64,000 nucleotides of DNA from an uncultured delta proteobacterium (lineage in GTDB: Bacteria; Myxococcota_A; Polyangia; Polyangiales; Houyiibacteriaceae), in contig CAVOVB010000001.1 in the NCBI GenBank assembly GCA_963699755.1, positions 1,536,001 to 1,600,000 on the forward strand, given 5' to 3'. The translations under genes were made by a program, and so were the position numbers. Positions 7,362-50,829 of this stretch are shown here, piece by piece. Within the stretch, counting starts at the first letter, position 1. The number at the start of each line of letters is the position of its first letter. Under the pieces are notes generated by a model, which saw only the letters and a list, made by a program, of their open reading frames with translations, did no database searches and was not told the DNA's origin.

Positions 7362-7400
7362 AGAACTTTGAGCTTGACGGGGGACGCCGCTTCGCAGAAG
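7362..7400 (+). mobile_element. Isolated IS110/IS1111-type right-end tip
   Basis: AGAACTTTGAGCTTGACGGGGGACGCCGCTTCGCAGAAG is nearly identical to the reverse complement of 22547-22585. Confidence 0.75.
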
Positions 7401-7449
7401 GCAACACAAAGCCGCTCTCCGCGCGGTTCCCGACGCGACCTAACGAGCT

Positions 7450-7495
7450 AGTACCGCGCAATTCGGCGCTCATCATCATCCCGATGGGCTAAGAG
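7450..7495 (+). repeat. 46-bp site, copy 1
   Basis: AGTACCGCGCAATTCGGCGCTCA-TCATCAT-CCCGATGGGCTAAGAG. Confidence 0.9.
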
Positions 7496-7538
7496 GCTCT
7501 CCGATCGCGGTGGAGGGGCTGTCCGGACGGGCTGGCCC

Positions 7539-8534
7539 TCAGCCCGACTTGGCCCTGCCCGCCTTCACCTCGGTCACGTCGTCGAAGTCCAATTCTACCT
7601 CGACGTCCGCTTTTCCGCGCGGCTCGCCCTTCGAGCCGGCGGTCCCTACGCTGTTCAAGTCGGCCCCGGAACGGCCAGCAGTGCCAGCGCTTTTCCCGCC
7701 CGATGCATTCGCGTTCGCCGGAGAAAACTTCTTCACCTTGTCCGTTGCCTCCACGGGGGCTGCTTCATCCCCTTTGGCCGCTTCGACCGGGTCTACGAAG
7801 CCGTGTGCTTCGGCGATCTTCGGCACGATCATCGCGCTCCAGATGTCCTTCAGCGGAACATGCTCCAAGAGCGTTTGGGAGCCGACCGCATCCACCAAAC
7901 CGGCTTCGGTGAACTTCTTCTTCTCCTGCCCGGCGGTCAAGGCCGCCGTGATGATCTTCTCGAGCTCGCTACGGGGAAGTAGCGCGGCGATGCGATGGAC
8001 CGAGATACCGTCGATGATGTCACGATGGGTCATCAGCTCATCTTGGAGGGCCCGATCCATCATGAAGGCCACATGTTCCGTGGCTCTCTTCGACGCTTCC
8101 GCATCCGACGACGAGGCATCCCAGAACTCACCCTCGATCAGGAATTGCCAAAGTGCTTTGTCGGAGAGGTACCGGACACGATCATCTGGATCGAAGAGAC
8201 CCACGACCGTCTCGGCGTTCGTCTCTCCTTCGTCCAAGGCGATCTGCAGATCTTCACCCGCCGATTCAGCGGACTTCTTCGACGCGATTCGGGACTTGAT
8301 ACCCGTGGTGGTCACCAGGATGTTGGCCCGCAGCGAAGGTCGATCACCCAAGCCCGCCATGATGGCCGCTGGAGGGAAGTGACGTATGAAATCCTCCGCA
8401 GTGCGTCGTCCGCATCCAAGGGCATGCTCGACCACGTGGGCGAGGAAGCGCTCACGTCCGTGACTGAGCTTGGAGGCGAACGGAGGTTTCTCTTCCTGGA
8501 TTCCTTCGGGTTCTGTCTTCTTCGCGTCGGCCAT
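7539..8534 (-). CDS. Hypothetical protein
   Basis: 331-aa ORF with protein-like composition and a purine-rich RBS region; no family recognised. Confidence 0.75.
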   Translation of the reverse strand: MADAKKTEPEGIQEEKPPFASKLSHGRERFLAHVVEHALGCGRRTAEDFIRHFPPAAIMAGLGDRPSLRANILVTTTGIKSRIASKKSAESAGEDLQIALDEGETNAETVVGLFDPDDRVRYLSDKALWQFLIEGEFWDASSSDAEASKRATEHVAFMMDRALQDELMTHRDIIDGISVHRIAALLPRSELEKIITAALTAGQEKKKFTEAGLVDAVGSQTLLEHVPLKDIWSAMIVPKIAEAHGFVDPVEAAKGDEAAPVEATDKVKKFSPANANASGGKSAGTAGRSGADLNSVGTAGSKGEPRGKADVEVELDFDDVTEVKAGRAKSG

Positions 8535-8703
8535 GCCAGTCCATCTTTCGTTGAAACAGGAAAACTACACATATAAGGTATGAAAATCGCAGTCTCAGGT
8601 CAATGGAAATGTCGACCATGCCGAATGCCGGGCTCGTACCGAGAGCTCACGATCCAGTCCGCTTGCGCCTAGGAATCACTGAAAACACAAGTAGGCTCCA
8701 ACA

Positions 8704-8900
8704 TCACCCCGGTCCGTTTCTGCTCGAGTCCCACTCGACGGCGCAGCCACCGCCTCCGCGCCAGTCGTTCTCCAGGGTGCAGAACCGGGTACGGCCATCG
8801 TCGCGGTCCAAGCTGCCATCGTCGCAAACCTCGTCGACGTCGAGGACGCCGTTGTCGCAGGTCAGCGGTGCCGCGCGAACCGGGGTGGCGGCCATGGTAT
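8704..8900 (-). pseudogene. Fragment with a myxobacterial Cys-rich repeat (DUF4215-like)
   Basis: CDNGVLDVDEVCDDG motif in a short, incomplete ORF. Confidence 0.45.
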
Positions 8901-9038
8901 TTACAGACGCCGCTGCCACACTGAGGGGCTTCGGTGCAAGGCCCTGCGCCCAGCTCGCATCGGTCTTCGGGCCGCTAGGATATCCCGATTTCGCGCCGAG
9001 TCCCGGATTGAGCAAATGAACTGCGAGCGACTCCCCCG

Positions 9039-9875
9039 ATGCTGATCGACTCTCTCCTCATTCTCGCTGGCTTCGCGTTGCTCCTGGGAGGTGGAGAAGG
9101 CCTGGTGCGTGGCGCGAGCGGAATTGCGCTCCTTGCACGGGTCCCTCCGCCGGTCGTCGGGCTCACCGCTTTGGTCCGCCCTTTGTGAATCTTGGGCAAT
9201 ACCGTTCGCTTCGAATGGCCGGTCATGATGCTCGCTGCGGTTCTGCTCCATCTGCTCGCACGGGACTTGCTCGTCGATCGATTGGAGAGCGGCTTCCTCT
9301 TCGTGTGCATGGTCGCCTTTGCGGTTTACGCCGTCTGGCTCGGCCGCAAAGGGGTTGCTCCGGTCGAGCAACAGGAGTTCGCAGACCTGACGACCGCGTC
9401 CTTTGGTCGGTCTGGGAGGGCCGCCGTGGGCCTCAACGTTGTGGCGGTCGCCGTTGGGATTGGGTTGCTGGGTGCAGGCTCCACGGCCCTGGTGCAAGGG
9501 GCCGTCGGCGTGGCCAGCCTGCTCGGCGTCCCGGACACCGTCATTGGCCTCACGATCGTGGCAGCCGGGACCAGCGCGCCCGAGCTCGTGACCTCACTGG
9601 TCGCCGCACGCAGGGGGCAGGACGACATCGCAGTCGGCAACATCGTCGGCTCGAACATCTTCAACGTGCTCGGCATCGTCGGAGTCGCGGGCCTCATTCG
9701 ACCTTTGCCAGTTCCGCGAGAAATCATCGTTTGGGACGACCTGTGGATGTTGGGCGGATCTGCCCTGCTGTTTCCATTGATGAAAACCGACATGACGATC
9801 AACCGTATCGAAGGCGCCTTGCTCTTGGCGGGGTTCGCAACGTACATGGCGCTCTTGATCCACCGATTCGCGTGA
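9039..9875 (+). pseudogene. Calcium/sodium antiporter (YrbG-like) pseudogene
   Basis: Starts MLIDSLLILAGFALLLGGGEGLVRGA; the first alpha repeat is deleted after VVGLT; in-frame TGA at 9186; the second repeat GTSAPEL...[10 protein letters not shown] is intact. Confidence 0.8.
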
Positions 9876-9921
9876 AATCGTCATGGGCATCGCTTTAGAG
9901 GCCACGAGGATGCAATAGCGT

Positions 9922-11688: not shown

Positions 11689-11754
11689 GCCGCCGGATCG
11701 CCTGCTGCGAAGAGGCGTTGCACGATCTGCGCACTGTTTGCGCCCCCTGTCAGT

Positions 11755-11974: not shown

Positions 11975-12920
11975 GTGATTGTCCGGCACCAACGTGCATC
12001 GGCAAGCAACAAGGGCTTTCGTCAGCTCGCCCGTTACATTCGGGGTCGAAGCGACACGCCGCGGGCGACCTGGTTCCTGGCCGCCAATCTTCCTGGCGTG
12101 ACCGGGCCCGCTGACCTCCAGCTCGCATGCCGACTCGTCGAGGCCGTGCACACTCAGAACACCCGCGCGGGCAACAACCGCACGTATCACATGGTCATCT
12201 CCCTTCACCCGGAGGACCGAAGCCTCAACGGGAACGAGCTCAGGCCTGTTGTGGAAAACCTGGTGGAGACCTTGGGCTTTTCCGGGCACCAGTACATCGC
12301 CGCGCGTCACAACGACAAAGACCACGAGCACGTGCACGTGGCCATCCACAAGATCCACCCGGAGACCTTTCGGATTCACTCGCCAGCCTGGGATCGCCAG
12401 AAGCTCTTCACCGCGGGCCGTGCGCTCGAACGAGAGCTCGGACTCACGCCGCTTCGGTCGAGAGTGCGCGATCGTGAGAAAGTCCCGCAGAGGGCGGCGG
12501 ACCACGAAGCCCACCACGGAATCGACAGCTTTGCTCGCTGGGCCAAAAACCAGCTAGGTCACGCACTTCGAGCCGGGCAGCTGCGGAGCTGGGACGATGT
12601 GCACGACGTCTGCGCCAGACTTGGCGTGGCGCTTGGGCGGCATGGCACGGCCTCCTCTTCGAGGATGTCGAGCAGGGCGTGCGCGCGAAGGCGTCCTTCG
12701 TCGGCCGCGAGCTCAGCAAGGCGCGCCTCTGCCAACGGCTCGGAGCCTTCCACCGAGCGCCCGCGCATCAGCTGGAAGCTTCAAGAAATGCGACCCGGCG
12801 ATACTCCCCCGCCCCTCCCATCGCGCCTCACAGCTTATGGAAGGAATACGAGCAGAGCCTGATCCAAGCCCGTACGCAGCGCCATTTCGTCGCCAGTCGC
12901 GCCGCGCATGCCGACCGAGG
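11975..12920 (+). pseudogene. MOB-P relaxase pseudogene, preceded by the mobC 3' end (about 11925-11978)
   Basis: Close paralog of 25002-26240 with a frameshift near 12648, a 234-bp deletion at 12879-12884 and a 3' truncation. Confidence 0.9.
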
Positions 12921-18619: not shown

Positions 18620-18933
18620 GGCTCTCGGAGTCTACCCCAAGACGCGTGCCGATAAAGCCAGCGCGCGCACCCGAGCCGTTCACACCTGTGTGACTCTCTT
18701 GCACCACTCGGGCCCGCGGCCCGTCGATTCCCCAGCGTCTCTTATCGCGCTGCGTCTCTCGTCACGCTGGCCGTCGCTGCCTCGGGCTGCTTCAACTTCG
18801 ACTTCGGCTCGGGCGACAGCGACATCGAAGCTGATAGTCGATATAAACGCAATGCCGACCATTTCCATCCCTAACTGATCGGCATTGGATATAAATGCCC
18901 TTTCAGCTTCGCGCCCAACGCGACATAAGATCT

Positions 18934-18979
18934 AGTATCGCGCGATTCGGCGCACATCTTGAGCCCGATGGGCTAAGAG
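18934..18979 (+). repeat. 46-bp site, copy 2
   Basis: AGTATCGCGCGATTCGGCGCACA-TCTTGAG-CCCGATGGGCTAAGAG. Confidence 0.9.
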
Positions 18980-19346
18980 AGCTACGCTGCGCCGCATCCG
19001 CTTGGTAGCATTCTTGGGAGCGCTCGTGCTGACCGCGGGATGCCCAAGGTCAGACTGGAAACGGTGCAGCAATCTCGAGATTATGACCCGCAACGCTTCC
19101 AACCAGCAGCAGTGGATGCGTTACGAAAACGCCCGCTACTGGGTGCTCGACACGGACCTTTTGACGATCGAGTGGGAGTGCGTGAAGTGCATCGAGCTCG
19201 AATCGAAGTCGGCTCACTCCTCACCACACCGTTCAGCCTAATCGCGATGACGATTGCGTATCAACGGCCATGAGGGCGACGCACGCCGATTCGATGTGAA
19301 GCCGCGGCACCAATGATGTGAATCGATTTGGTTCGGAGCACGGCGC

Positions 19347-22349: not shown

Positions 22350-22450
22350 CCGGCGATCCTCCTAGCCCCCGCGCATGCGGTCAATGCCGGAAAGCGCCCC
22401 GCGATCATCGCGCAGTACCGAGCCGCTGACCTACGCCGCCACGATCGGCT

Positions 22451-22496
22451 CTCTTAGCCCATCCGGCTCAAGGTGAGCGCCCAATTTCGCGGGACT
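22451..22496 (-). repeat. 46-bp site, copy 3
   Basis: Reverse complement AGTCCCGCGAAATTGGGCGCTCA-CCTTGAG-CCGGATGGGCTAAGAG. Confidence 0.9.
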
Positions 22497-22548
22497 AGCG
22501 CGTTCTGTCGACTGGGACGCGAACCGGAAAAAGGCCTCTATGTCGACT

Positions 22549-23692
22549 TCTGTGAAGCGGCGTCCCCCGTCAAGTTCAAAGTTCTGGGTTGTCTAGCCGT
22601 TTTGGCGAGATGGTCGGCATCCTTCTGTTCGCGCTCGCCTGAGGCAGCTTCTTGCTGCGGCGCATGGTGGGATTCGAGGGCTGGCCGGCGCCATCTATGC
22701 TTCGGCTCCAAAAAAGTAGCCAAAATTCAACGCGCTCGGCCCCCGCAATTTGGACTCATCGCGGGAAGGCGTGTGTGTCAGTTCTCCTTTGGGATGTTCG
22801 GGTCACGCAGCATGGGCTGCAGAGATGTTGTGTCTTCCGAAGTCGGTGCCATCGCGCCACATCGCAAACAAGATGCCGGCGAGCTTTCGCGCCAAGGCGA
22901 CCGCGGCGATACGCTTGCCTCGTCGAATCGCAATCCGGTGAGCCCATGCGCGAAGCGCTTCGTTGTCCGCGCGTCGGCTTCGCAGCAATTGCCGTGAGGC
23001 CTCGACCACGAGTGCGCGCATGCGCCGGTTGCCCGCATTGGTGATGTGGCCTCAGCGTTGTTTCTCGCCGCTGCTGAGCTCCCGCGGCACAAGCCCTAGA
23101 TAAGCGCGCACCCGTTTGGCGTGCGCAAAGCGTTCGACCCGGTCGACGATAGCCACAAATGAAATCGCTGTGACCGGACCCACGCCAGCCGCGGTGCACA
23201 ATCGCTTGGCGACCTCATGGGTCCTGACTTGTTCGGCGAGGGCTTTGTCCGCGGCCTTGAGCTCTGCGTTGACCGAGCGCATCAGATCGAGCAGCGGCGC
23301 CACGTTCGCTCCGAAGGCTTCGGGCAAGTCGAGCTCGCCTAGGCGCTCAGCAAACGTGGCGGCCCCGCCGCTGCGCACGCGGTAGCCTTGCTGCCTCAAG
23401 AGCGCCCGAATCAGACGAATGTGACGGGTCCGCGTTTGCACCAGCGCCTCGCGCACCGCATGCGGGGCTTGTCGCGTTTCCCGAGCCACTTCGCAAAGCT
23501 CTGTCGGTCGGTGCCGATCCGCCGCTCGATGAGCTGCCCCGTTTCGGTCCGGATGCAGACTTGGCTTGCGTTCTTGTGCACGTCGATTCCAATATGGTCC
23601 ATGGCTGGCCTCCACTGCGGCGATTGACCGCGTTTATTGTGTGTGGGGCATCTTGCCACCACGTCGTGGCGGCCAGCCGCTTCATTTCATCT
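22549..23692 (-). mobile_element. IS110 family (IS1111-like) element with a decayed transposase (22803-23602)
   Basis: GIDVHK, GVGPVTA, YLGLVPRELSSG and ALARKLAGILFAMWRDG. Internal deletion and a TGA at 23052. Sub-terminal IR TGAAGCGGC at 22553 and 23676, ~250-bp downstream non-coding region, outward TTGACG at the right end. Confidence 0.85.
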
Positions 23693-23939: not shown

Positions 23940-24292
23940 GCCGCGCGCGCACGCTTCGCGCCGCCGCCCGTGCCGCCGGCTTAGAGCCCGATCGCGCATC
24001 GCAGGTCAAGCCATACGACTTCCGGCACAGCGTCGCGACGGAGCTCACGGAACGTTCAGGGAACCTTCTCGGTGTCGGCTACCTGCTCGGGCACCGCCAC
24101 GCGACCACCACCAACCAGTACGTTCATGCGCGTCGCCGCGCGGCCGAGGCAGTTCTTTTGGGACAGAATTCGGGACAGATTGAAAGTAGTTTCGAGGTGC
24201 CCACAATCGGCGATCGAGCTAACCCCCCGACATCACTTCAGTGCGAGGGACAGGACTCGAACCTGCACGCCCTAAGGACACTGGAACCTAAA
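23940..24292 (+). pseudogene. C-terminal remnant of an A-type tyrosine integrase from an older tandem element
   Basis: KPYDFRHSVATELTERSGNLLGVGYLLGHRHATTTNQY is identical to Int A. Confidence 0.9.
24242..24292 (-). repeat. att site: 3' half of tRNA-Leu
   Basis: Identical to 31454-31504; identity ends exactly after AACCTAAA. Confidence 0.95.
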
Positions 24293-24661
24293 CGTAGGCC
24301 AGGCCCCCCACTTCCCGCGAATTTATTGGGGAAAGATGCGTCAGCAGACGTCCTGAGAGGTAGTGAAAAGACGCATTCGGGACAGGATGTCCCAGATACA
24401 GGCGTCGTTGTGACGATGTCTGATGTTCGTGCGTGCGCCAGGGCGCTCGTCCAACGTGTCGCCGAAGGTGGGGAGATCCCGATGGCGTCATTGCGCGATC
24501 TTGCCGAGCTCGCGCTGCGTTCGGAGTTGGTTGCCGTCAGCCAACAGCTACTCGACGGGCCGCCCGAGTTTGCGCTCAGGCGGGCGATGGAGCTTGCGGG
24601 TTTGGTCTTGGCGGTAGTTGCTACCGATGAGCACGCGGAAGAAAAGGAGGCGGCCAAGTGA
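24293..24661 (+). CDS. Displaced integrase C-terminal extension (or a small ORF starting at 24416)
   Basis: In frame with the integrase across the att core; homologous to 52418-52798 (EIPM..LR..A.L.L.SELVA...LDGPPEFA.RRA.ELA); stop overlaps the mobC start. Confidence 0.7.
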   Translation, partial: RRPGPPLPANLLGKDASADVLRGSEKTHSGQDVPDTGVVVTMSDVRACARALVQRVAEGGEIPMASLRDLAELALRSELVAVSQQLLDGPPEFALRRAMELAGLVLAVVATDEHAEEKEAAK

Positions 24662-25005
24662 AGCGAAACGAGGCGAGGAAGCTGAAGTCCTGCATGATCT
24701 CGTTTCGGGTCGATGAGGACTACCTCAGTCGGCTCGATGCTCTGGCGCAGCAAACCAGCTATTCGCGCGCAGAGGTGCTTCGTCGATGCCTTGTCGGGGC
24801 TCCGCTCAAGAGCACCGTCGATGCACAGGCGCTCACCAAGGTTGCACGGGTGCACGCCGACCTCAACCGCATCGGTGGTCTTCTCAAGCTCGCGATTCGA
24901 GAGGGCGTGTCTGACCCGTCCAGCCACAACAGGCTGAACCTCGAGCTCATCGACTCCATCATCCAAGTCCGTCGGGCGGTGGAGCGTTTGGCAGGGCGTC
25001 GGTGA
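24658..25005 (+). CDS. mobC: Relaxosome accessory protein MobC/TraJ-like
   Basis: RHH-like ISFRVDE and LNRIGGLLKL; coupled to the relaxase start (GTGA). Confidence 0.85.
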   Translation: MKRNEARKLKSCMISFRVDEDYLSRLDALAQQTSYSRAEVLRRCLVGAPLKSTVDAQALTKVARVHADLNRIGGLLKLAIREGVSDPSSHNRLNLELIDSIIQVRRAVERLAGRR

Positions 25006-26240
25006 TCGTCCGGCACCAACGTGCATCAGCGAGCAACAGGGGCTTTCGTCAGCTCGCCCGCTACATTCAGGGTCGAAGCGACAAGCCGCGAACGACCTGG
25101 TTCCTGGCAGCAAATCTGCCTGGAGTGACCGGGCCCCGCAACCTCGAGCTCGCCTGCCGACTCGTCGAGGCCGTGCACGCGCAGAACACCCGCGCGGGGA
25201 GAAAACGTACCTATCATCTCGTCGTCTCGCTTCACCCGGAAGACCGAAGCCTCGACAGGAACGAGTTCAGGCGTGTTGTGGAAAACCTCGTGGAGACTTT
25301 GGGGTTTTCCGGTCATCAGTACATCGCCGCGCGTCACAACGACAAAGACCATGAGCACGTTCATGTAGCCATCCACAAGATCCACCCGGAGACCTTTCGG
25401 ATTCACTCGCCGGCGTGGAGCCACCAGAAGCTCTTCACCGTGAGCCGTGCGCTCGAACTAGAGCTCGGACTCACGCCGCTTCGGCCGAGAGTGCGTGATC
25501 GTGAGAAGGTCCCGCAGAGGGCGGCGGACCACGAAGCTCACCACGGGGTCGACAGCTTCGCTCGCTGGGCCCGGAAGGAGCTTGGTCCCGCACTTCGAGC
25601 CGTGCAGGTCCGGAGCTGGGACGATGTTCACGACGTCTGCGCCACTCTTGGCGTCGTGCTTCGGCCACATGGCAACGGCCTCGTCTTCGAGGATGTCGAG
25701 CAAGGCGTGCGCGTCAAGGCGTCGTTCGTGGGCCGCGCGCTCAGCAAGCCGCGCCTGTGCCAACGGTTCGGAGCCTTCCACCGAGCGCCCGCGCATCAGC
25801 TGGAAGCTGCAAGAACTGCGACCCGGCGATACTCCCCCGCCCCTCCCATCGCGCCGCAGGGCCTGTGGAAGGAATACGAGCAGAGCCTGATCCAAGCTCG
25901 TACGCAGCGCCAAGACGCATGGGATAGCTACCGGCATGCTGCCGCGCGCGAGCGCCAGGAGCTCAAGCAGAAGTATCGCCGTCAGCGGAACGTCATCAAC
26001 GCCTTACCCGTGTCAGCCCGCGATCGAGGCCAGCTTGTGCGACAACTCGCGCTTCGGCAGACCATGGAAACTCGAGCTCTGAGGCGAAAACTCGCGATCC
26101 AACGGAAAGCCATCCAGAAGACCTGGCACCCTGGCACGTGGCGCCATTTCGTCACCAGTCGCGCCGCGCAGCGCGACGCCCGCGCGATTCGACTTCGAGA
26201 GCGGGAACGCGGCGGTTCCGAGCAAGAACGGGAGTTGTGA
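25002..26240 (+). CDS. MOB-P (TraI/VirD2-type) relaxase
   Basis: LARYI (putative catalytic Tyr21), YHLVVSLHPED and HQYIAARHNDKDHEHVHVAIHKIHP. Confidence 0.92.
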   Translation: MIVRHQRASASNRGFRQLARYIQGRSDKPRTTWFLAANLPGVTGPRNLELACRLVEAVHAQNTRAGRKRTYHLVVSLHPEDRSLDRNEFRRVVENLVETLGFSGHQYIAARHNDKDHEHVHVAIHKIHPETFRIHSPAWSHQKLFTVSRALELELGLTPLRPRVRDREKVPQRAADHEAHHGVDSFARWARKELGPALRAVQVRSWDDVHDVCATLGVVLRPHGNGLVFEDVEQGVRVKASFVGRALSKPRLCQRFGAFHRAPAHQLEAARTATRRYSPAPPIAPQGLWKEYEQSLIQARTQRQDAWDSYRHAAARERQELKQKYRRQRNVINALPVSARDRGQLVRQLALRQTMETRALRRKLAIQRKAIQKTWHPGTWRHFVTSRAAQRDARAIRLRERERGGSEQEREL

Positions 26241-26321
26241 GATGCAAGGAGACGGAGTGGAGACGCAGATGGGCGAGCCAAACGCGGTCTAGCGGTGCGT
26301 CGCAAGTCGAAATAACGAGCT

Positions 26322-26367
26322 AGTACCGCGCAATTTGGCGTCTACGATGAGCCCGATGGGCAGAGAG
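26322..26367 (+). repeat. 46-bp site, copy 4
   Basis: AGTACCGCGCAATTTGGCGTCTA-CGATGAG-CCCGATGGGCAGAGAG, ~80 bp after the relaxase stop. Confidence 0.9.
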
Positions 26368-26538
26368 TCAAACTCGGTCGGATCTCTTGGTGGGATCTCT
26401 TGGGTCGGTCAACCTGAGTCGGATTCTCCAACTCACAGCGCGGACAGGGCCTTTGTTCCTACTACGACCGTCGCAACGTGTGTTAGCCGGAGGGCGACAA
26501 ACAGAATCAGTCACTCTGGTCGGAAGCGACCACGAGGT

Positions 26539-28127: not shown

Positions 28128-28280
28128 AAGATCGAATTGTAGACCAAGGTCCCGTTTCTCGCATCAGCGCACAGATTGCGGTTCCTGGATGCGCTCGCAC
28201 GAGTCTTACCCAACGCGGCAAGGAGCGCATCGTAACTTCAAAGGACCTTTCCGGTTCGCGCCCCACGCGACATAACATGG

Positions 28281-28326
28281 AGTACCGCGAAATTCGGCGC
28301 TCATCGTCCTCCCGATGGGCTAAGAG
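28281..28326 (+). repeat. 46-bp site, copy 5
   Basis: AGTACCGCGAAATTCGGCGCTCA-TCGTCCT-CCCGATGGGCTAAGAG. Confidence 0.9.
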
Positions 28327-28328
28327 AG

Positions 28329-28452
28329 CTCGAAGGACCGCCGGAGTTCGCGCTCAGGCGAGCGATGGAACTGTCGGGCTTGATCTTGGCTTGGGCAGCT
28401 ACCGGTGAGTGCAAGGCAGAGGAGGAGGGAGGCGTCCAAGTGAGGCGAATCA
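28329..28452 (+). pseudogene. Remnant of the integrase extension and mobC start
   Basis: GPPEFALRRAMEL matches 24557-24665. Confidence 0.8.
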
Positions 28453-28478
28453 GACCATCCGACGACAGCACCGTGCTG

Positions 28479-28790
28479 TCAGACGGGACGATCCGCCCAG
28501 TATCCGGGTCGGCGCTTGAGGTGCGCCACCGCAAAGATCGTCACGGTATCCGAGTCAAAGTCGTATCGATAGATGAGCCCAAACGGAAATCGCTGCATGA
28601 GGTAGCGGCGATAGGGTTCGTCGATGAGCGGCCAACCCTCTGGGTTGTCGAGAATGTGATCAATCGCGACCTCGAGCTTCCGCGCGAAGTTCCTCGCGGC
28701 AGAGGCTGAGCGGAACTTGTACCAAAGACGCGCGCGACGAGCTTCGTCGGCCGCTTCCGGATGAATGATGAGCTCGGGTTGCTGGCTCAC
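28479..28790 (-). CDS. RelE/ParE family toxin
   Basis: HPEAADE, RFPFGLIY and AVAHLKRRPGYW. Confidence 0.88.
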   Translation of the reverse strand: MSQQPELIIHPEAADEARRARLWYKFRSASAARNFARKLEVAIDHILDNPEGWPLIDEPYRRYLMQRFPFGLIYRYDFDSDTVTIFAVAHLKRRPGYWADRPV

Positions 28791-29011
28791 GTGCCGAGCA
28801 TGATGCGACGGGCTTGAGCCCAAGTGAGCCCTTGAACTTGTCCCGTTTTGAGCTCGCGAGCGCGCTTGTGGACCTCCTCGATCCAGGCTTGCTCGACATC
28901 CGCTTCATCGCTCTCTTCGAGACTGTCGATCAACGAGGATACCAAGCGAGCGCGTTGGCGGACCGGAAGCTTCATCGCCTCCTCGAGCAGCTTCTTCGCC
29001 TCATCGGTCAT
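28787..29011 (-). CDS. Addiction-module antitoxin
   Basis: AMKLPVRQRARLV..LIDSL and AWIEEVHKR; overlaps the toxin start. Confidence 0.85.
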   Translation of the reverse strand: MTDEAKKLLEEAMKLPVRQRARLVSSLIDSLEESDEADVEQAWIEEVHKRARELKTGQVQGLTWAQARRIMLGT

Positions 29012-29156
29012 GCTCCGATTATGCCCGATCGGGTGTGCTGTCGCTACCGCCCGCGTTCTCCGTGCGCCGCGTCTACATGACGACCGAGCTAAGCGACCTG
29101 GCCCAGGGAGCCCTCGCGTCCTTTCGTCTCGAGTGCTACTCTCTGGCCGCTTCGCC

Positions 29157-29648
29157 ATGCGCGTGCCTGCGCTAGTATCCGTGATTCTGTGCGTCTCGTT
29201 CGTCTGCTTCGCCTGCTCCTCAGGCGGCGCCGGGGTCGGTACAGGAGGGGCGGGAGGCCCAGCCGGGATGGGTGGTGCCGCTGGCCGAGGCGGCGCAGGT
29301 GGCATAGGTGCCGACGCGTGTCGCGGACCCCTTGAGGATTACTGCTCTCGATGCCCGACGTACGAAGCGGCGTTTGCCGAGGCTTTCGAGGGATTTGAGA
29401 TCTGCAGCGACGACGGCCCAAGGACAGATCTGCCCGCTGCCGGGACTTGCGGGGAGCTCCGCTGGATCGTGACGTGGGACGTGGTCGACGAGTATTTCGA
29501 GTACTTCGATGCGTCCGGCACGCTGGTCGGAGCGACCTTCGTGACGGACGTGTTCGTTCTGTGTGACGGATCGTCTGCCAGCAAGGACTATGGAATAGTG
29601 CCCGACTGCGAGCGGGTGACCACCACCAGGGTGTGCGAGCCGCAATAG
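29157..29648 (+). CDS. Cys-rich lipoprotein with a Gly linker
   Basis: Lipobox CFAC, GGAGG linker and paired Cys. Confidence 0.7.
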   Translation: MRVPALVSVILCVSFVCFACSSGGAGVGTGGAGGPAGMGGAAGRGGAGGIGADACRGPLEDYCSRCPTYEAAFAEAFEGFEICSDDGPRTDLPAAGTCGELRWIVTWDVVDEYFEYFDASGTLVGATFVTDVFVLCDGSSASKDYGIVPDCERVTTTRVCEPQ

Positions 29649-29723
29649 ACCTCTCTGCGCCAGAGACGACCGAACGTCGAAGTCGTCAAATAGCCCTTAC
29701 GAGCACCCGCATGATGCCTACCG

Positions 29724-29811
29724 AGCCCCTGCGCGAATAAGCCGAAGGCGTTGAGCGCGGCATGCGGGGACTGAGACATCTTCGATGTCTTACAATCCCA
29801 CATCTTGCCCG
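29724..29811 (+). other. oriT of element A (IncP-type nic site)
   Basis: IR AGACATC-TTC-GATGTCT followed by CCCACATCTTG^CCC, resembling the IncP YATCCTG^Y nic; homologous to 34625-34711. Confidence 0.75.
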
Positions 29812-30331
29812 GTACCCAGCATGGTCCGAACTGACCAAGACTGGCGGAATCTGTCACAGGCTGACCTTTTTTGGCGCGTTCTGAATCCTTTTGGAGTCTT
29901 CTGCGCTGTCTTGGATTGAAAGGGAGCCATTTCGCGTCAATCGATTCCACGTCTAGTCAAAGTTGGTCAACCTTGGTCAGTTTGTGACAGTAGAGGACAG
30001 AATGTGACTGCCAGCGCCAAGCTCACCGCGGCGCTTCTTGTCGCTCGATGGCGTGCTCGCTTTCCAAGCATTTTCTGCTCGCGCAACTTTTCGGGGGACA
30101 AAACCGATAACCATGTATGGGGGACACGCCCGACTCATATCAACCGCACGCGAGACCTTCTGATCAAGAAGCCCGAAGAACACCGGCTCTCGATTCGCCC
30201 CTGCTGACAAGAAATGAGGCGGCGGTATATTGTCGAATCTCTCTTCGGACATTCGATCGGCAAGTTGCTGCGAAAGTTCCTCGAGTGCGAATCGGTTGCC
30301 GTTGCTTGTATGACAGGAAAGATATCGATCG

Positions 30332-32677
<2,346 letters not shown>

Positions 32678-34624: not shown

Positions 34625-34711
34625 GGGCAAGATGTGGGATTGTAAGACATCGCAGATGTCCCAATCCCTGCTTGCCGCGCTCAACGCCTTCGGCTTATTC
34701 GCGGCGGGGCT
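34625..34711 (-). other. oriT of element B
   Basis: Inverted homolog of 29724-29811 with the same nic sequence and IR GACATC-GCA-GATGTC. Confidence 0.75.
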
Positions 34712-34865: not shown

Positions 34866-35070
34866 GTGGAGCTTCACGCGGCGGCTGCGCGCGAGGCGAT
34901 TTCTCAGTCGTACGTGCGTCGCGTGCCGGAGCATGGGCTGCTGCACCGCGTCGTCCGCGAGCACCTTCAGGCCTTCCTTTGGGAGCTCGACCGACGTGAT
35001 CACGATCGCGGCGCCCCTTTGTTCGTGAAGCGCGAGTTTCAGCGATTCATTCGTTGCGGAGTGCTTGCCA
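34866..35070 (+). mobile_element. IS91-like transposase N-terminal fragment
   Basis: YVRRVPE..LLHRVVREHL..F...P.FVKREF..FIRCGVLA, truncated next to site copy 6. Confidence 0.75.
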
Positions 35071-35076
35071 GAAAGC

Positions 35077-35122
35077 GAGCCAAGGCATCGGGCTCATCGT
35101 AAACGCACAATTGCGGGGTACC
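35077..35122 (-). repeat. 46-bp site, copy 6 (right arm degenerate)
   Basis: Reverse complement GGTACCCCGCAATTGTGCGTTTA-CGATGAG-CCCGATG..., preceded by GCGACATAGC. Confidence 0.75.
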
Positions 35123-35318
35123 AGATGCTATGTCGCGCGGCGCGATGCATCGAGAAGGCCTTTGTCTTGCCTATCTGCCGAGCCCCAGGACGCCACTGCT
35201 CGTGTCTTACTCACGAAGCGACGATGAAGGGTTTTCATCATTTTCCCTTCTGCTAGGGTTCCCCCACGACGTGCCGCATGAGGCGCACACCCACTCTCGA
35301 AAAGGACAGATCCTTCAG

Positions 35319-46071: not shown

Positions 46072-46299
46072 ACGGCCGCGGCATATACGCTGTGCGTTCC
46101 TGCCGGCAACAAGGCTGCGGTGTTTCCAAGAGATCTGATAAAAAAAGATCTGACCCAGGGTGGCGACGGACGAGGACGCGAAACGGGGCGTCCGCGGGTG
46201 TCCCGCGAGTCGGTTGCATGAGCTGCGTCGGCCGGTGGATGCCGACTATCAGCGCTGAGCAGCGATTTCGGCCTCAGCGAACGTACTGCCTCTCCCAAA

Positions 46300-46533
46300 C
46301 ACCGCACTCCGACCGCACGGCGCCAACAAGTACACGCATACCTTTCCCGGGGGCTGACGCCGCTGGTGAACGACTTCTGGTCCATCACCATGTATACCGA
46401 TGACAATGGCTGGTGGTTCTATCCCAACCCGCTCAACAAGCTCACCGAGAGCATGCGTAATCAACCGAAGTTCAACGACGACGGGTCGCTCACGCTCTAC
46501 TTCCAGCACGAATCGGGATTGACCACCTCGTAA
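46300..46533 (+). pseudogene. DUF1214 C-terminal fragment
   Basis: FYPNPLNK...KFNDDGSLTLYFQHES with no start, in broken frames. Confidence 0.6.
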
Positions 46534-46630
46534 GCGACGCAGTCGGGTAAGCCGGCTCCGATTCATGCGCTGCTTACGGATGAAGCGTTTGCCGGACCCG
46601 TCCGCTCGGTGCCTAGCATCGGCTCTCAGC

Positions 46631-47281: not shown

Positions 47282-47481
47282 GTCCAACCTCCGAAGTAGA
47301 TGCTTGGAGACTTCTTGTAGTTGAAGTCCCGGCGAATGCCAGTCTGAAACGAGATCCGACCTAGGTTGAGAAGCTGTCACCAGCAAGCCGTCGGTTTACC
47401 CATTCGAAACAAAATGGGCCAATCAAAATTGTGGAATCGCGACAAGACAAATTTGTGGATTGAGATACGTTTCGCGCCGAG

Positions 47482-48633
47482 ATGACGACAGCATCGCGAA
47501 TAGCCATCCGTTTATTTCCTGTTTGTCTGGCCTGCGTCATGACTGTGGTCTTGCTGTCGAGTTGTACGAAGGTCGGTCCCAAATCGATCCGCAAGACGCG
47601 CTTCGACTACAACTCGGCCATCATCGATACCCGCAACGAGCAGATGCTCGCGAACCTCGTCCGACTCCGCTATCGCGACACCCCCTATTTCATCGAAGTG
47701 TCGAGCGTCGCGACCCAGTACGTGCTGGGTATTGCAGGCTCGGCATCGGTAGGCGGAATCGGTGGGCCGGACAATAAGGCAGTGGGAGGCGTTGGGGGCG
47801 ACGTGTACTACGAAGACCGACCCACCATCACGTACACGCCGCTTCAAGGCGAAACGTTCGTGAACCGCCTGTTGTCGCCCGTACCGATGGGGGCGATTGT
47901 GCTCCTCAGTCACTCGGGTTGGCGGTTCGAACGTCTCCTGCGCTGCTGTGTCCAACGGATCAACGACGTGTGGAACGCGCCTACTGCGGCTGGGCCGACG
48001 CCTGATCTCGCGCCGGACTTCGAGCGATTCGTCGAAGTTGCAACACTGTTCGACGAAATGAGCCAGGCCGACGCGTTGGATTTGCGTTACCGGCGCCTCG
48101 GTCCCGAAGAGCCCCTCGACACGATCCCGCTCGGGGACCCAGAGACGCCCTTTGTGATGACCCTGGTATTCGGGGACGCTCCCGAGATCGCCGAGCAATC
48201 GAAACGCTTGAAAGAGATTCTGGGTATCCGGTCGGACCTCAACGAGTTCTTCTTGACGACGAACCCGACCTATCGCTCGCCTCGCGAAATCGGCATTTTG
48301 CCGCGCGCGCTCATCGGCGTGATGAGCTATCTCTCGCAGGGCGTCGAGCCGCCCCCGCAGGACGTCGAAGCCGGCAAAGTGACGGTGACCCGATATCGCG
48401 ACGGAACCGAGTTCGAATGGCGAGAGCTGACCGGCGCGGTGTTTCGGGTCGCCTCGAGCGACCAGGTCCCAAACGACGCCTTCGTCCGTGTGGAGTATCG
48501 CGGGACCTGGTTCTACATCGAGGACTCGGACCTCAACTCGAAGTCGACGTTCAACTTGCTCGATCAGCTCTTCCAACTGCAGTCCGGGAACACGAGGAAA
48601 GCCGGGCCTGTGCTCACACTGCCACTCAACTGA
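47482..48633 (+). CDS. Conserved hypothetical lipoprotein
   Basis: Lipobox LSSC, NLVRLRYRDTP and PTITYTPLQG. Confidence 0.75.
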   Translation: MTTASRIAIRLFPVCLACVMTVVLLSSCTKVGPKSIRKTRFDYNSAIIDTRNEQMLANLVRLRYRDTPYFIEVSSVATQYVLGIAGSASVGGIGGPDNKAVGGVGGDVYYEDRPTITYTPLQGETFVNRLLSPVPMGAIVLLSHSGWRFERLLRCCVQRINDVWNAPTAAGPTPDLAPDFERFVEVATLFDEMSQADALDLRYRRLGPEEPLDTIPLGDPETPFVMTLVFGDAPEIAEQSKRLKEILGIRSDLNEFFLTTNPTYRSPREIGILPRALIGVMSYLSQGVEPPPQDVEAGKVTVTRYRDGTEFEWRELTGAVFRVASSDQVPNDAFVRVEYRGTWFYIEDSDLNSKSTFNLLDQLFQLQSGNTRKAGPVLTLPLN

Positions 48634-48691
48634 CGAAGCGCCTGGGCCCTTTAGTCTTACCCACTAAGCTAGCGCCACGGAGCAATCTGCA

Positions 48692-50545
48692 ATGACCGAA
48701 CGTCTGCTTTTCACACGACCGTCTTCGCGAATCAGTGTTGTATTCATCCTGGCGGCCCTCACGGTACTGACTCTTCCGCTTGGTGCGGGAGCCGGCGAAA
48801 GCGGCGGCCCTGAAACGCACCCGCTCGAGCCACCCGATGTCTCCTCACCCGAAGCGACGCTGAACACGTTCTTGACCGAGGCCACGGCCGCGATTGAGGC
48901 ATCCTACGAGGGAAAGCGAGAGGCGGTAGGGGCCCACCGCGACCGCCTGTTTCAGACTCTCGAGGTCGACCGACCAAGCAGCGAGCCCGAGCTTCGCGCG
49001 TTGGTCGAGTCTTCACTTTACCTTTTCGAGATTCTCATTCGCATCGACATTCCGGCTCGCAAGGAGATTCCGGGTCCGGACCTCGATCCGGAGCGCATGC
49101 CTGCGTACTGGACGATTCCCCCTACCGAGCTTCGCATCGTGCGGATCGACTCGGCTGTCGGGGCACCGCCGCAGTATCGGTTCTCGGCCGAGACAGTCGC
49201 GCGCCTGCCGGAATTTTTCGAAAGAGCAAAATCGCTGCCCGTCAAGAAACGCTTTGCGAAGTTCGACGGCGTGCAGGAGAAGTATCGCCTTCAGCCAGGA
49301 TTCGCGGCACCGGCGTTTTTTCATCGTGCGGTCGAAGCGCTGCCACCTCGCTGGTTTATGACCTTGGGTGGCGTCCCGCTCTGGAAGTGGAGCGCGCTGA
49401 CCATCCTCGTTCTCATGGGCCTGATCTTCTTCAGCCTGACCTACAGATTGACCGGATTCATCGCCGACCGGGAGCGATCGACCTCGAGCGTGACTGCGCG
49501 GCTCCGCGCGCTTCGCCCCGTCGTCGCCATCGCGTTGATCGCATTCGTACAGCGGGGGGTCGCCGACTGGATCCGTCTCACAGGCGCTGAGCGAGCGGTG
49601 ACCATCGGCCTGCTCTCCGCGCTCGGTCACCTCGCGGCCATCTGGTTGCTGTTCACGGTCGCAAGGCTCGTCGCCGACGCCGTCATTCACGTGCGTGACA
49701 TGAGAGCCTATGCCCTCGATGCCCAACTCGTGCGTCTGATTTCCAAGCTCGGTGCCGTGCTGCTCACGGTCTATGTGCTGATGAGCCTGGCAGAAAGCCT
49801 CGGTGTGCCTGTGGCCCCCATGCTCGCCGGGCTCGGCGTCGGCGGCTTGGCGGTCGCGCTTGCGATACGCCCGACACTGGAGAACGTCATCGGAGGCTTC
49901 ATCCTGTTCGCCGACGCGCCAGTCCGGGTCGGCGAGTTGTGTCGATTTGGTGACACGCTCGGGACGGTCGAGGCGATCGGCCTGCGTTCGGTTCGGGTGC
50001 GCGGACGCGATCGCACGGTGATCACCATCCCGAATGCCGACTTCTCCCAGCTCGAGCTCACGAACTTGTCGCGCCGAGATTCCATCCTGCTACAGACCAC
50101 CCTCCAGCTTCGCTACGAAACCACGCCCGACCAATTGCGACTCGTCCTCGTACGGTTACGCGAGCTCTTGATCCAGCACCCCAAGGTTTTGCGCGATCCG
50201 GCGCGCGTACGATTCGTGGGGTACGGTAGTTCGTCACTCGATGTCGAGGTCTTCGCGTACGTCGCGACTCAGGATCGCAACGAGTTCTTCGCGATCCAAG
50301 AAGACGTGATGCTGCGCATCAAAGACATCGTGGAAGACGCAGGCTGCGGCTTTGCCTTCCCCTCTCAAACCCTCTACCTGACGCAGTCTGAAGACCCCGA
50401 TCCGGAGCTCGCCAAGGCTGCCGAGGCGGAGGTCGCGCGCTGGCGAGACGAAAACCGCCTGCCGTTTCCCGATCATGATGCCGACATCCGCAGCGAGCTC
50501 GCCGACACACTCGACTACCCTCCCAAAGGCTCGGGCACGGAATGA
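48692..50545 (+). CDS. MscS family mechanosensitive channel
   Basis: GLGVGGLAVALA, IGLRS.R.R, IPN and FAFPSQT. Confidence 0.92.
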   Translation: MTERLLFTRPSSRISVVFILAALTVLTLPLGAGAGESGGPETHPLEPPDVSSPEATLNTFLTEATAAIEASYEGKREAVGAHRDRLFQTLEVDRPSSEPELRALVESSLYLFEILIRIDIPARKEIPGPDLDPERMPAYWTIPPTELRIVRIDSAVGAPPQYRFSAETVARLPEFFERAKSLPVKKRFAKFDGVQEKYRLQPGFAAPAFFHRAVEALPPRWFMTLGGVPLWKWSALTILVLMGLIFFSLTYRLTGFIADRERSTSSVTARLRALRPVVAIALIAFVQRGVADWIRLTGAERAVTIGLLSALGHLAAIWLLFTVARLVADAVIHVRDMRAYALDAQLVRLISKLGAVLLTVYVLMSLAESLGVPVAPMLAGLGVGGLAVALAIRPTLENVIGGFILFADAPVRVGELCRFGDTLGTVEAIGLRSVRVRGRDRTVITIPNADFSQLELTNLSRRDSILLQTTLQLRYETTPDQLRLVLVRLRELLIQHPKVLRDPARVRFVGYGSSSLDVEVFAYVATQDRNEFFAIQEDVMLRIKDIVEDAGCGFAFPSQTLYLTQSEDPDPELAKAAEAEVARWRDENRLPFPDHDADIRSELADTLDYPPKGSGTE

Positions 50546-50704
50546 AGCGTGCCGTACACGACCTCACCCGGGCTGGCGTCGAGCACGACTCTTGCCGCCT
50601 TTTCCCAACGAGCTCGGCAGTCGCAGCCGCCGACGGATGACGGCCGAACGCCACCTGGGTGGGGTCGTTTCAACTGCAGTCCGGAAACGTGAGCAGTCGC
50701 GGGC

Positions 50705-50750
50705 CTCTTAGCCCCTGGGGACAATTCTAAGCGCCGAATTGCGCGGTACT
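50705..50750 (-). repeat. 46-bp site, copy 7
   Basis: Reverse complement AGTACCGCGCAATTCGGCGCTTA-GAATTGT-CCCCAGGGGCTAAGAG, ~80 bp after the relaxase stop. Confidence 0.9.
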
Positions 50751-50829
50751 CAATGTTGTGTCGATTTGCGGCGCACTCTAGACCGCAGTTGGCTCGCCAA
50801 TCTGCGTCTCCACTCCGTCTCCTCGCATC

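What the first reader, a model, noticed from the sequence alone, without database searches (positions are those of the whole stretch)
7400..50800. Fixed-length 46-bp site (7 copies) brackets the cargo: candidate gene-capture or cassette-exchange system
Seen: copies at 7450+, 18934+, 22451-, 26322+, 28281+, 35077- and 50705- with no indels. The structure is a 23-bp arm AGTACCGCGCAATTCGGCGCTYA, a variable 7-bp centre and a 16-bp arm CCCGATGGGCTAAGAG, with weaker homology ~50 bp further 5' (AAAGG..TTTCC..CGCGACATAAC). One copy sits ~80 bp after each intact relaxase. Copies 4/5 enclose two cargo genes of A and copies 6/7 enclose ~15.6 kb of cargo in B, both as direct repeats in backbone orientation. 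It does not match the attC, dif or Tn3 IR consensus as I know them. Inference: a site-specific recombination site; no dedicated recombinase is evident in the window.
Basis: partly seen in the sequence, partly recalled or inferred. Interest (0 to 1): 0.87.

Follow-up and report, generated by a model that had tools for sequence, protein, structure and literature searches.

The report
Rolling-circle transposon end repeat seams
The "46-bp site" is the core of a 105-bp repeat that most likely comes from the end of a rolling-circle (IS91-type) jumping gene and marks the seams where cargo genes are joined into mobilizable islands of one group of sediment bacteria.

Summary
The seven copies are real, but the unit is about 105 nt, not 46. 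It has about 48 copies in this genome. It occurs in 21 of 24 same-genus genomes and in 0 of 16 sampled from other families. Copies cluster, mostly co-oriented, inside islands built from tRNA-Leu-integrated mobilizable elements.

It is not a structured RNA, a promoter or terminator, an attC-like fold, a dyad-symmetric recombinase core, or a relative of the islands' tRNA att sites.

Homology between related islands, and between flank homologues in other genomes, stops at the repeat's edges rather than in the 7-bp centre.

The strongest link is to an IS91-family (Y2 HUH) transposase gene. All 12 full-length or near-full-length copies examined, from 10 genomes, have the repeat (two of them a variant of it) about 117 nt beyond the stop codon in one polarity. 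A variant transposase carries a variant repeat. A remnant of the gene lies beside window copy 6.

Best reading (about 0.5): the repeat is the ori-side terminal segment of this rolling-circle transposon. Solo copies would be miniature or one-ended products that capture and shuffle adjacent genes.

Rivals are a relaxase nick site, an integrase secondary att site, and a passive homology patch.

This is a new variant of a known kind.

The parts
7400..7498 (+). repeat copy 1 (full unit; 46-mer at 7450-7495)
   Evidence: C1:1543400-1543498
18887..18983 (+). repeat copy 2
22448..22541 (-). repeat copy 3
26273..26369 (+). repeat copy 4, relaxase-type left half, starts 33 nt after the relaxase A stop
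28233..28329 (+). repeat copy 5; many metagenome contigs diverge just behind 28326-28330
35080..35171 (-). repeat copy 6, right arm lost after CCCGATG
50702..50798 (-). repeat copy 7, relaxase-type, starts 32 nt after the relaxase B stop
34893..35069 (+). remnant of the IS91-family (Y2 HUH) transposase gene, residues 15-73, 86% identical to the intact copy on contig C2; abuts copy 6 in the usual polarity
   Evidence: tblastn, E 1e-25; no Pfam hit for this short piece
25002..26240 (+). MobA/VirD2-type relaxase of island A (NikA-like gene at 24658-25005)
50830..52077 (-). relaxase of island B (NikA-like gene at 52074-52421)
11975..12862 (+). truncated relaxase of an older island remnant
29733..29810 (+). 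roughly 80-nt 'module' repeat upstream of integrase A: the right border of the cargo region
34625..34702 (-). same module upstream of integrase B
30332..31561 (+). tyrosine integrase A (open frame runs into the tRNA)
31484..32677 (-). tyrosine integrase B
31453..31536 (-). tRNA-Leu, the integration target; a 75-nt copy of its 3' part and flank lies at 24218-24292
24379..24393 (+). hairpin of the better oriT candidate upstream of the mob operon (island B counterpart at 52686-52700, with compensatory changes)

Best explanation
The repeat is the ori-side terminal segment (about 105 nt) of an IS91-family rolling-circle transposon of this genus. That transposon consists of the repeat, then 116-118 nt, then an antisense gene for a Y2 HUH transposase with an IS91-type zinc ribbon, then a 5' region of about 370 nt.

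Solo copies are miniature or one-ended derivatives.

Inferred mechanism:
1. The transposase nicks one strand beside the repeat's left tip.
2. Replication displaces that strand through the repeat.
3. Stopping at the short motif that closes the repeat (…AAGAG-R-S-C) gives a 105-nt miniature.
4. Running past that motif carries the downstream genes along (one-ended transposition).
5. Reinsertion, often beside resident copies inside mobilizable islands, stacks co-oriented units of repeat plus cargo.
6. Recombination between the many copies then swaps flanks. Cargo therefore ends up bracketed by direct repeats, and homology between islands breaks at the repeat's edges.

Shown here: the anatomy, the copy distribution, the edge-precise breakpoints, and the constant linkage to the transposase gene. 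Inferred: every enzymatic step.
For: Linkage to the transposase gene:
- An ORF of 441-497 aa with Y2_Tnp (E 1.5e-23) and Zn_Tnp_IS91 (E 2.3e-16) lies antisense beyond the repeat's 3' edge.
- Of 10 loci from 10 genomes (L049-L058), 8 have a recognised repeat about 118 nt beyond the stop. L056 shows only its last 36 nt because the contig ends there. L058 carries a variant repeat.
- The same holds at own-genome C7 (intact) and C1:1949 kb (broken) and in L083. The junction is always …AAGAG followed by (A/G)CCGGCAAAC (or ATCGGCAAAC at C7).
- The two most diverged transposase genes (80-82% identity; L058 and L085) both carry the same variant repeat.
- Remnants stay adjacent: window copy 6, C3:9796-9984 and G018.
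- In this genome, 5 of 6 transposase pieces touch a repeat.

Fit to IS91-family anatomy:
- In distant homologues the transposon's ori tip lies about 240-320 nt past the stop and contains GATAG after a …GAG(G)AC flank. These are 4 Acidobacteria loci at 49-53% identity and one in-genus locus at about 42%.
- Here, the distance from the stop to the far edge of the repeat is about 222 nt, and the repeat's tip reads (C/G)ATAG.
- Both edges carry a similar short motif. NGAGC precedes ATAG in 28 of 87 left contexts, and GAGC closes 46 of 83 right ends. The three positions after AAGAG are R 82/83, S 81/83 and C 61/83.

The repeat behaves as a discrete unit:
- Of 2415 pairs among 70 distinct copies, 2357 share neither flank, 25 share the upstream flank only, 32 share the downstream flank only, and 1 shares both.
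- Breakpoints fall at the edges.
- Metagenome contigs from 4 runs of 4 studies diverge at 28326-28330.

Literature:
- The IS91 family has unlike ori and ter ends, tetranucleotide specificity, and one-ended transposition in 1-14% of events (PMC13181058, passages).
- IS801 throws off right-end miniatures of 229, 360 and 679 nt in 26% of events (PMC3189936, abstract and passages).
Against: - No filled-versus-empty site pair was found. The flanks of one tested copy have homologues in different genomes but never contiguous ones, and cargo homologues in relatives lack the repeat.
- In 8 of the 9 transposase loci whose far side could be read, that far side is the same spacer plus module. Independent movement of the full-length element is therefore not shown, and the linkage could be inheritance of one old arrangement.
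- Ten of the 21 repeat-bearing genomes gave no transposase hit. Several of these are fragmented assemblies.
- Only 28 of 87 left contexts show the NGAGC motif. Another 30 have GC[AT]GAT.G and 29 have neither.
- The repeat has no significant similarity to the transposon interior or its far end (observed scores were reached by 59-245 of 300 shuffles).
- The terminal hairpin keeps only 3 bp and shows no covariation.
- An alternative reading of the same junction treats the repeat as the transposon's preferred target or a ter-like site, with the ori starting at ACCGGCAAAC. This cannot be excluded.
Confidence: 0.5

Rival explanations
1. The repeat is a nick (oriT-like) site of the islands' MobA/VirD2 relaxase. 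Initiation at one copy and termination at the next, or relaxase-mediated integration, would cut and join cargo exactly at the nick.
For: - A copy follows the relaxase stop by about 33 nt, in sense orientation, in 8 of 12 relaxase loci and at 5 of 10 relaxase hits in this genome.
- Conservation lies entirely on one side of the junction, as in oriTs.
- The edge lies 8 nt after a small inverted repeat. That is the spacing reported for R388, RSF1010 and RP4 (PMC4814116, passages and Table 2).
- One metagenome contig places a repeat about 110 nt upstream of nikA.
Against: - Relaxases 74-81% identical to relaxase A (L066-L068) have no repeat within 1.5 kb.
- A better oriT candidate, a hairpin with compensatory changes, lies upstream of the mob operon in 11 of 12 loci, including two of the three loci (L067, L068) that lack any repeat.
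- The inverted repeat at the repeat's end is only 3 bp in many copies and shows no covariation.
- Most copies are far from any relaxase (48 copies against 10 relaxase hits).
Confidence: 0.13
2. The repeat is a secondary attachment site used by the islands' tyrosine integrases. This would resemble the third att site of GIsul2, which lets its integrase move the CR2-sul2 unit, or an integron-like attC/attI pair with the module next to int.
For: - Cargo always lies between the repeat and the module, a roughly 80-nt repeat upstream of int. The integrase gene reads away from the cargo, as in an integron platform.
- An 'empty' joint of repeat end to module start occurs in contigs of two runs from different studies.
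- There is a GIsul2 precedent for an island integrase moving a unit that includes an IS91-like gene (PMC9376610: abstract, Introduction and Discussion read).
- Arrays are co-oriented.
Against: - There is no similarity between the repeat and the tRNA-Leu att regions (scores at shuffle level).
- There is no dyad symmetry around any spacer, and conservation is wholly one-sided.
- There is no consensus fold: RNAalifold gives -1.65 kcal/mol with 0 compensatory pairs in 57 copies, and single-strand DNA folds score z -0.8 to -2.2 with different shapes.
- Neighbouring genes show no orientation rule (21 opposite, 17 same).
Confidence: 0.12
3. The repeat is a passive piece of island backbone, for example a protein-binding or regulatory site. 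It was multiplied by tandem accretion and decay of islands, and ordinary homologous recombination between copies explains the seams.
For: - Copies are mosaic. Copy 4 has a relaxase-type left half and a copy-6-like right half. L063 joins a type-1 left part to the variant right arm.
- Orientation follows the local island backbone.
- Islands integrate in tandem at one tRNA.
Against: - Copies far outnumber relaxases and integrases.
- Some spacings are only about 15-90 nt between successive full copies.
- Four copies 100% identical over about 103-105 nt sit in one array beside different flanks.
- Both edges are sharp, and 2357 of 2415 copy pairs share no flank.
- The repeat is constantly adjacent to the Y2 gene.
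Confidence: 0.15

Closest known systems
Miniature right-end derivatives of IS801 (IS91 family) in Pseudomonas syringae pv. phaseolicola (PMC3189936)
   Same: Both are non-coding fragments that keep the ori-side end of a Y2 rolling-circle transposon and stop at a short motif. Both can be mobilised in trans, and the parent element can carry adjacent host DNA along.
   Different: Here the unit has a fixed length of about 105 nt. It has dozens of copies per genome, is conserved across a genus, is clustered and co-oriented inside mobilizable islands, and sits at module seams. Its mobility has not been observed.
ISCR / CR elements and IS91 one-ended transposition (PMC13181058; PMC9376610 Introduction)
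   Same: There is a Y2 HUH gene with a sharply bounded ori-side end next to variable captured genes. There are no inverted terminal repeats. Specificity rests on a tetranucleotide.
   Different: The captured genes here are stress and transport genes in environmental Myxococcota islands, not resistance genes. Many ends occur without the transposase gene. The bounding motif (GAGC / AAGAG) differs from CTTG or GTTC.
GIsul2 attL / attLR / attR system (PMC9376610)
   Same: Both involve a mobilizable island carrying an integrase, transfer genes, a toxin-antitoxin pair and an IS91-like gene, in which an internal repeated site delimits a separately movable cargo unit.
   Different: In GIsul2 the internal site resembles the island's own att core and the integrase is shown to act on it. 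Here the repeat is unrelated to the tRNA att sites and no integrase action is shown.
Integron attC sites
   Same: Both form co-oriented arrays of a repeated site separating cargo, with a recombination point at one extreme end of the site.
   Different: The repeat has no R''/L''-L'/R' inverted-repeat fold. Its primary sequence is highly conserved. Cargo genes lie in either orientation. No integron integrase was identified.

Membership tests
IS91-family transposon end / miniature derivative | Physical association with a Y2 HUH transposase (Y2_Tnp with an IS91 zinc-binding domain) | tested here: met
   Pfam hits. Adjacency in L049-L058 (8 canonical, 1 cut by a contig end, 1 variant), own-genome C7 and C1:1949 kb, L083 and L085.
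IS91-family transposon end / miniature derivative | Two unlike ends and no terminal inverted repeats | tested here: met
   No inverted partner of the repeat at the other side of the gene. No internal dyad in the repeat.
IS91-family transposon end / miniature derivative | The same short (tetranucleotide-like) motif flanks the ori tip and closes the unit | tested here: inconclusive
   NGAGC lies before the tip in 28 of 87 contexts, and GAGC lies at the right end in 46 of 83. Distant homologues show …GAG(G)AC before GATAG in 5 of 5 loci. The exact cut position cannot be fixed.
IS91-family transposon end / miniature derivative | Insertion without target duplication, shown by filled and empty sites | tested here: inconclusive
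   No empty site was found.
IS91-family transposon end / miniature derivative | Transposase-dependent movement or circular intermediates | not testable with these tools
   Only assembled contigs of public runs were available.
oriT / nic site of a MOB relaxase | Present with every member of the relaxase family, at a conserved place | tested here: not met
   A same-orientation copy follows the relaxase in only 8 of 12 loci, and L066-L068 have none within 1.5 kb. Another conserved hairpin region is present in 11 of 12 loci.
oriT / nic site of a MOB relaxase | Inverted repeat about 8 nt 5' of the nick | tested here: inconclusive
   The spacing fits, but the stem is 3-5 bp, is broken in 30-50% of copies at the two outer pairs, and shows no covariation.
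Tyrosine-recombinase core / secondary att site | Inverted binding arms around a 6-8 bp overlap, and likeness to the element's own att sites | tested here: not met
   The arms are not inverted repeats (read directly). There is no similarity to the att regions. Breakpoints lie at the edges, not in the centre.
Integron attC | Conserved folded structure with paired R and L boxes | tested here: not met
Integron attC | Integron-type integrase next to the array | not tested
   There are 22 integrase-family hits in the genome. None was examined for the IntI-specific insertion.
REP / BIME-type repeats | Palindromic units spread through core intergenic regions | tested here: not met
   By my grouping of the coordinates, 44 of 48 hits lie in 8 clusters covering about 245 kb. 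The unit is not palindromic.
Known RNA families (Rfam 15) | Match to a curated covariance model | tested here: not met
   The only hit in the window is tRNA-Leu. There is nothing at E up to 1 in 28150-29900.

The most novel reading that the evidence does not exclude
The repeats together with the Y2 transposase form a rolling-circle counterpart of an integron. Each repeat would be a site the HUH enzyme can both start from and stop at. Any stretch between two direct copies could then be lifted out as a single-stranded circle of cargo plus repeat and set down at another copy. Mobilizable islands would gain a dedicated, polar cargo-exchange platform that needs no serine or tyrosine recombinase.
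Probability: 0.15. Interest if true: 0.8.

Novelty: new variant of a known kind. Interest (0 to 1): 0.5.

Why it matters
IS91 and ISCR elements are suspected to be major gene-capture vehicles, but their ends and their mode of capture are poorly defined outside a few model elements. This genus offers a natural series: full elements, variants, dozens of solo ends, and co-oriented arrays inside tRNA-integrated mobilizable islands, where the seams can be read to the nucleotide. If the transposase acts on the repeat, the system shows how rolling-circle transposons load mobilizable islands with adaptive cargo (here osmotic and general stress genes). It would also supply a compact 105-nt substrate for biochemical work on Y2 enzymes.

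Tried and rejected
- Structured RNA: RNAalifold on 57 copies gave no consensus structure. A hand-drawn terminal hairpin showed no covariation. Rfam gave nothing.
- Promoter or terminator: the repeat is nearly always intergenic (4 of 48 overlap a called gene) and has no strand relation to neighbouring genes (21 opposite, 17 same).
- Known plasmid sequence: no blastn match in 72,556 plasmids.
- Likeness to the tRNA-Leu att sites: none.
- Likeness of the repeat to the interior or far end of the transposon: not significant. An 11-nt match (AAACGCGGTCT) between relaxase-type copies and some ori regions was noted by eye only.
- Enrichment of canonical IS91 targets (CAAG and similar) before the left tip: about 10 of 87 by eye against roughly 6 expected, so dropped.
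- Empty-site search by two genus-wide DNA searches: flank homologues were found, but never contiguous.
- Metagenome contigs: parts without cover are not interpreted. No circle junction could be told apart from tandem arrays.
- Earlier-findings look-ups returned nothing on this repeat.
- PMC6856555 was consulted for nick consensus sequences and gave none.
Full report
**The observation**

All seven copies are present at the stated coordinates and strands. The three more diverged copies are recovered by repeat finding and by a profile built from the seven. The 46-bp core has no indels.

The conserved unit is larger than 46 bp. Aligning 30 full-length genomic copies, and then 57 and 62 copies including relatives, shows conservation from about 55 nt upstream of the 46-mer to 3 nt beyond it, about 105 nt in all. 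Information content falls to zero on both sides. After the final AAGAG, the next three positions are purine in 82 of 83 copies, G or C in 81 of 83, and C in 61 of 83; beyond that the sequence is random.

Copy 6 is truncated after CCCGATG.

**Distribution**

- The window is C1:1536001-1600000 of a 5.35-Mb, 11-contig assembly.
- The profile finds 48 copies at E up to 0.01. By my grouping of the coordinates, 44 lie in eight clusters covering about 245 kb.
- Orientation is strongly uniform within clusters. On contig C7, ten successive copies are on the minus strand. In C1:389-460 kb, nine of ten are on the plus strand. In relatives the counts are 8/8, 3/3, 4/4, 6/6, 4/4 and 3 of 4.
- 21 of 24 same-genus genomes have the repeat, usually many times. 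None of 16 genomes from other families of the order has it.
- There is no match in 72,556 plasmids and none to any Rfam family.
- Record titles of relatives are Polyangiales/Myxococcota metagenome-assembled genomes. The runs holding the region are sediment, soil and salt-marsh metagenomes.

**The setting**

The window holds mobilizable islands on both sides of a tRNA-Leu gene.

- Island A spans 24.2-31.5 kb: tRNA fragment, NikA-like gene, MobA/VirD2 relaxase, copy 4, two cargo genes, copy 5, ParE and antitoxin, a roughly 80-nt 'module', integrase, tRNA.
- Island B spans 31.5-52.9 kb and is inverted. It has the same backbone with 15.6 kb of cargo between copies 7 and 6.
- Older remnants lie further left: a truncated relaxase, an integrase fragment and an IS110 fragment.
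- Backbone comparison across the genome gives the order att, nikA, relaxase, repeat, cargo, module, int, att.

**What the repeat is not**

- It is nearly always intergenic: 4 of 48 copies overlap a gene called by a codon-usage model. The nearest gene beyond the 3' edge is on the opposite strand 21 times and the same strand 17 times. It is therefore not a promoter, leader or terminator.
- RNAalifold on 57 copies gives -1.65 kcal/mol with four pairs and no compensatory change.
- A terminal hairpin (AGCCC/GGGCT) keeps only its inner 3 bp and shows no covariation.
- Single-strand DNA folds of six sequences (five copies, one on both strands) score z -0.8 to -2.2 and have different shapes. This argues against a structured RNA and against an attC-like folded site.
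- The two 'arms' are not inverted repeats, and the repeat has no similarity to the islands' tRNA att regions. This argues against a conventional tyrosine or serine recombinase core.

**Where the seams are**

- Five independent lineages of relaxase-plus-repeat are 76-94% identical to each other: L059, L060/61, L062, L064/65 and L069. Their alignments stop at position 400-402, where 400 is the last G of AAGAG, in all but the two that involve L059 and L064/65 (these stop at 373, inside the repeat). What follows is unrelated in each lineage.
- In G014, a 530-nt copy of a relaxase 3' end with its repeat is joined exactly to the 3' edge of another repeat.
- In contigs of four metagenome runs from four studies, depth peaks on the repeat, and many contigs diverge just behind 28326-28330. 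Contigs of two runs join 28329 directly to 29733, that is, repeat end to module start with no cargo.
- For a repeat in G014, homologues of its left and right flanks exist in different genomes and stop at the repeat's two edges.
- Among 70 distinct full copies, 2357 of 2415 pairs share neither flank. Twenty-five share only the upstream flank (21 of these are the relaxase family). Thirty-two share only the downstream flank (all but one belong to one family). One pair shares both.
That centre is simply the most variable stretch.
- Copies are also mosaic, which shows exchange within the repeat.

**The downstream family is an IS91-type transposase gene**

- The gene lies beyond the 3' edge and antisense to the repeat. 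It encodes 441-497 aa with Y2_Tnp and Zn_Tnp_IS91 domains.
- This genome has an intact copy on C2, an intact copy on C7, a broken one at C1:1949 kb, a C-terminal piece at C1:406 kb, a distant piece on C3, and residues 15-73 at window 34893-35069, immediately beside copy 6.
- Across the genus the gene is found in 26 of 55 genomes.
- In ten loci from ten genomes (L049-L058), eight have a recognised repeat about 118 nt beyond the stop. One shows only the repeat's last 36 nt because the contig ends there. One has a variant repeat.
- That variant has the same left part, a different middle, and a right end …GCGCAATTC-AGGAGCTGAGTG. It recurs beside the other diverged transposase gene (80% identity) in a second genome.
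- A remnant in G018 is also fused to a repeat fragment.

**Is the repeat part of the transposon or its landing site?**

In favour of 'part of it':
- In distant homologues the ori tip lies about 240-320 nt past the stop and reads …GAG(G)AC then GATAG. These are four Acidobacteria loci at 49-53% identity and one in-genus locus at about 42%.
- Here the far edge of the repeat is about 222 nt past the stop, and its tip reads (C/G)ATAG, preceded by NGAGC in 28 of 87 contexts. The right edge ends GAGC in 46 of 83.
- The variant repeat travels with the variant gene.
- In IS801, right-end fragments of 229-679 nt ending at a short motif make up 26% of transposition events (PMC3189936, abstract and passages).
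- The family is described as having unlike ori and ter ends, a tetranucleotide beside the ori, a subterminal palindrome at the ter, and one-ended transposition in 1-14% of events (PMC13181058, passages).

In favour of 'landing site':
- The sequence right after the repeat (ACCGGCAAAC…, with a 7-bp palindrome in most copies) looks like an ori end.
- AAGAG would be a family-like flank.

Against both:
- In 8 of the 9 loci whose far side could be read, that far side is the same spacer, module and integrase. These copies may all descend from one arrangement.
- No filled/empty pair was found.
- Ten of the 21 repeat-bearing genomes gave no transposase hit.
- There is no significant similarity between the repeat and the rest of the transposon.

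**The relaxase rival**

- A repeat follows the relaxase in 8 of 12 loci. The one-sided conservation, with an edge 8 nt after a small inverted repeat, recalls oriTs (PMC4814116, passages).
- Three relaxases 74-81% identical to relaxase A have no repeat nearby.
- A different conserved region with a hairpin that changes by compensatory substitutions lies upstream of the mob operon in 11 of 12 loci. Its window coordinates are 24379-24393 and 52686-52700. That is the usual place for an oriT.

**The integrase rival**

- This rival rests on geometry (cargo between repeat and module, with int reading away) and on the GIsul2 precedent (PMC9376610).
- It lacks any sequence or symmetry support.

**Verdict**

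The feature is real, much more abundant than reported, and marks recombination seams. The specific idea of a 46-bp serine or tyrosine recombinase site, and the statement that no enzyme is evident, do not hold.

I put about 0.5 on an IS91-family origin and function, either as an ori-side end with miniature and one-ended derivatives or, less likely, as its cognate target. I put about 0.13 on a relaxase nick site, 0.12 on an integrase secondary site, and 0.15 on a passive homology patch.

I searched the held literature for IS91 with oriIS and terIS, for oriT/MOBQ terms, and for 'IS91 family' with miniature, non-autonomous and rolling-circle. I found IS801 miniatures and ISCR capture, but no description of a high-copy, genus-wide IS91-derived repeat organising island cargo. 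The supplements of these papers were not read.

Noticed in passing
window 29733-29810 (+) and 34625-34702 (-); also C1:463061, C1:1224919, C1:1950919, C7:9154, C7:48689: A discrete repeat of about 80 nt (starts GCGAATAAGCC, contains a long imperfect hairpin) lies about 520 nt upstream of island integrase genes, with sharp edges in different contexts. In the metagenome contigs its depth is even higher than that of the 105-nt repeat. Rfam gives no match. Its function is unknown.
   Followed up: partly
window 24379-24393 and 52686-52700: A hairpin upstream of the small ORF, nikA and relaxase operon is conserved in 11 of 12 relaxase loci, with compensatory stem changes (GGGACA/TGTCCC versus GGTCAC/GTGACC). 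It is a likely oriT of these islands.
   Followed up: partly
window 31453-32677 and 30332-31561; repeats 31494-31674 and 52794-52974: Two integrase genes converge on one tRNA-Leu gene, and their open frames run into it from both sides. Island B is bounded by a 181-nt direct repeat that includes the 5' part of the tRNA, which is unusual for tRNA-targeting islands.
   Followed up: no
G000 C7:430433-435813 versus window 50732-52839: The end of contig C7 repeats the relaxase end of island B with identical profile and BLAST scores. This is either a second copy of the island or an assembly duplicate. The tool reports 9% contamination for the genome.
   Followed up: no
window 1-62000, cargo genes: Cargo and neighbouring genes are rich in osmotic and general stress functions: four MscS-type channels, OsmC, a ferritin/Dps-like protein, a BON-domain protein, a universal stress protein, a TMEM175-type K+ channel and a glutamate-receptor-like channel.
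   Followed up: no
L058 (G045) beside the transposase gene; metagenome joint 28331 back to 28267: Tandem duplication of the last 21-65 nt of the repeat occurs in one genome and in one metagenome contig. This may be a trace of slippage or repeated cutting at the 3' edge.
   Followed up: no
window 28329-28449 versus 24551-24667; L043:17686-18214: Directly after some repeats lie truncated starts or ends of mob modules (75% similar to the region just upstream of nikA; a 530-nt relaxase 3' end). The mob operon itself therefore behaves like one of the shuffled units.
   Followed up: partly
window 7362-7411, 22536-22585; C7:11103 and C7:15587 upstream flanks: Four repeat copies share an extra conserved extension of about 40 nt on their left side (…GAACTTTGA.CTTGACGGGGGACGCCGCTTC.CAG). 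Its nature is unknown.
   Followed up: no
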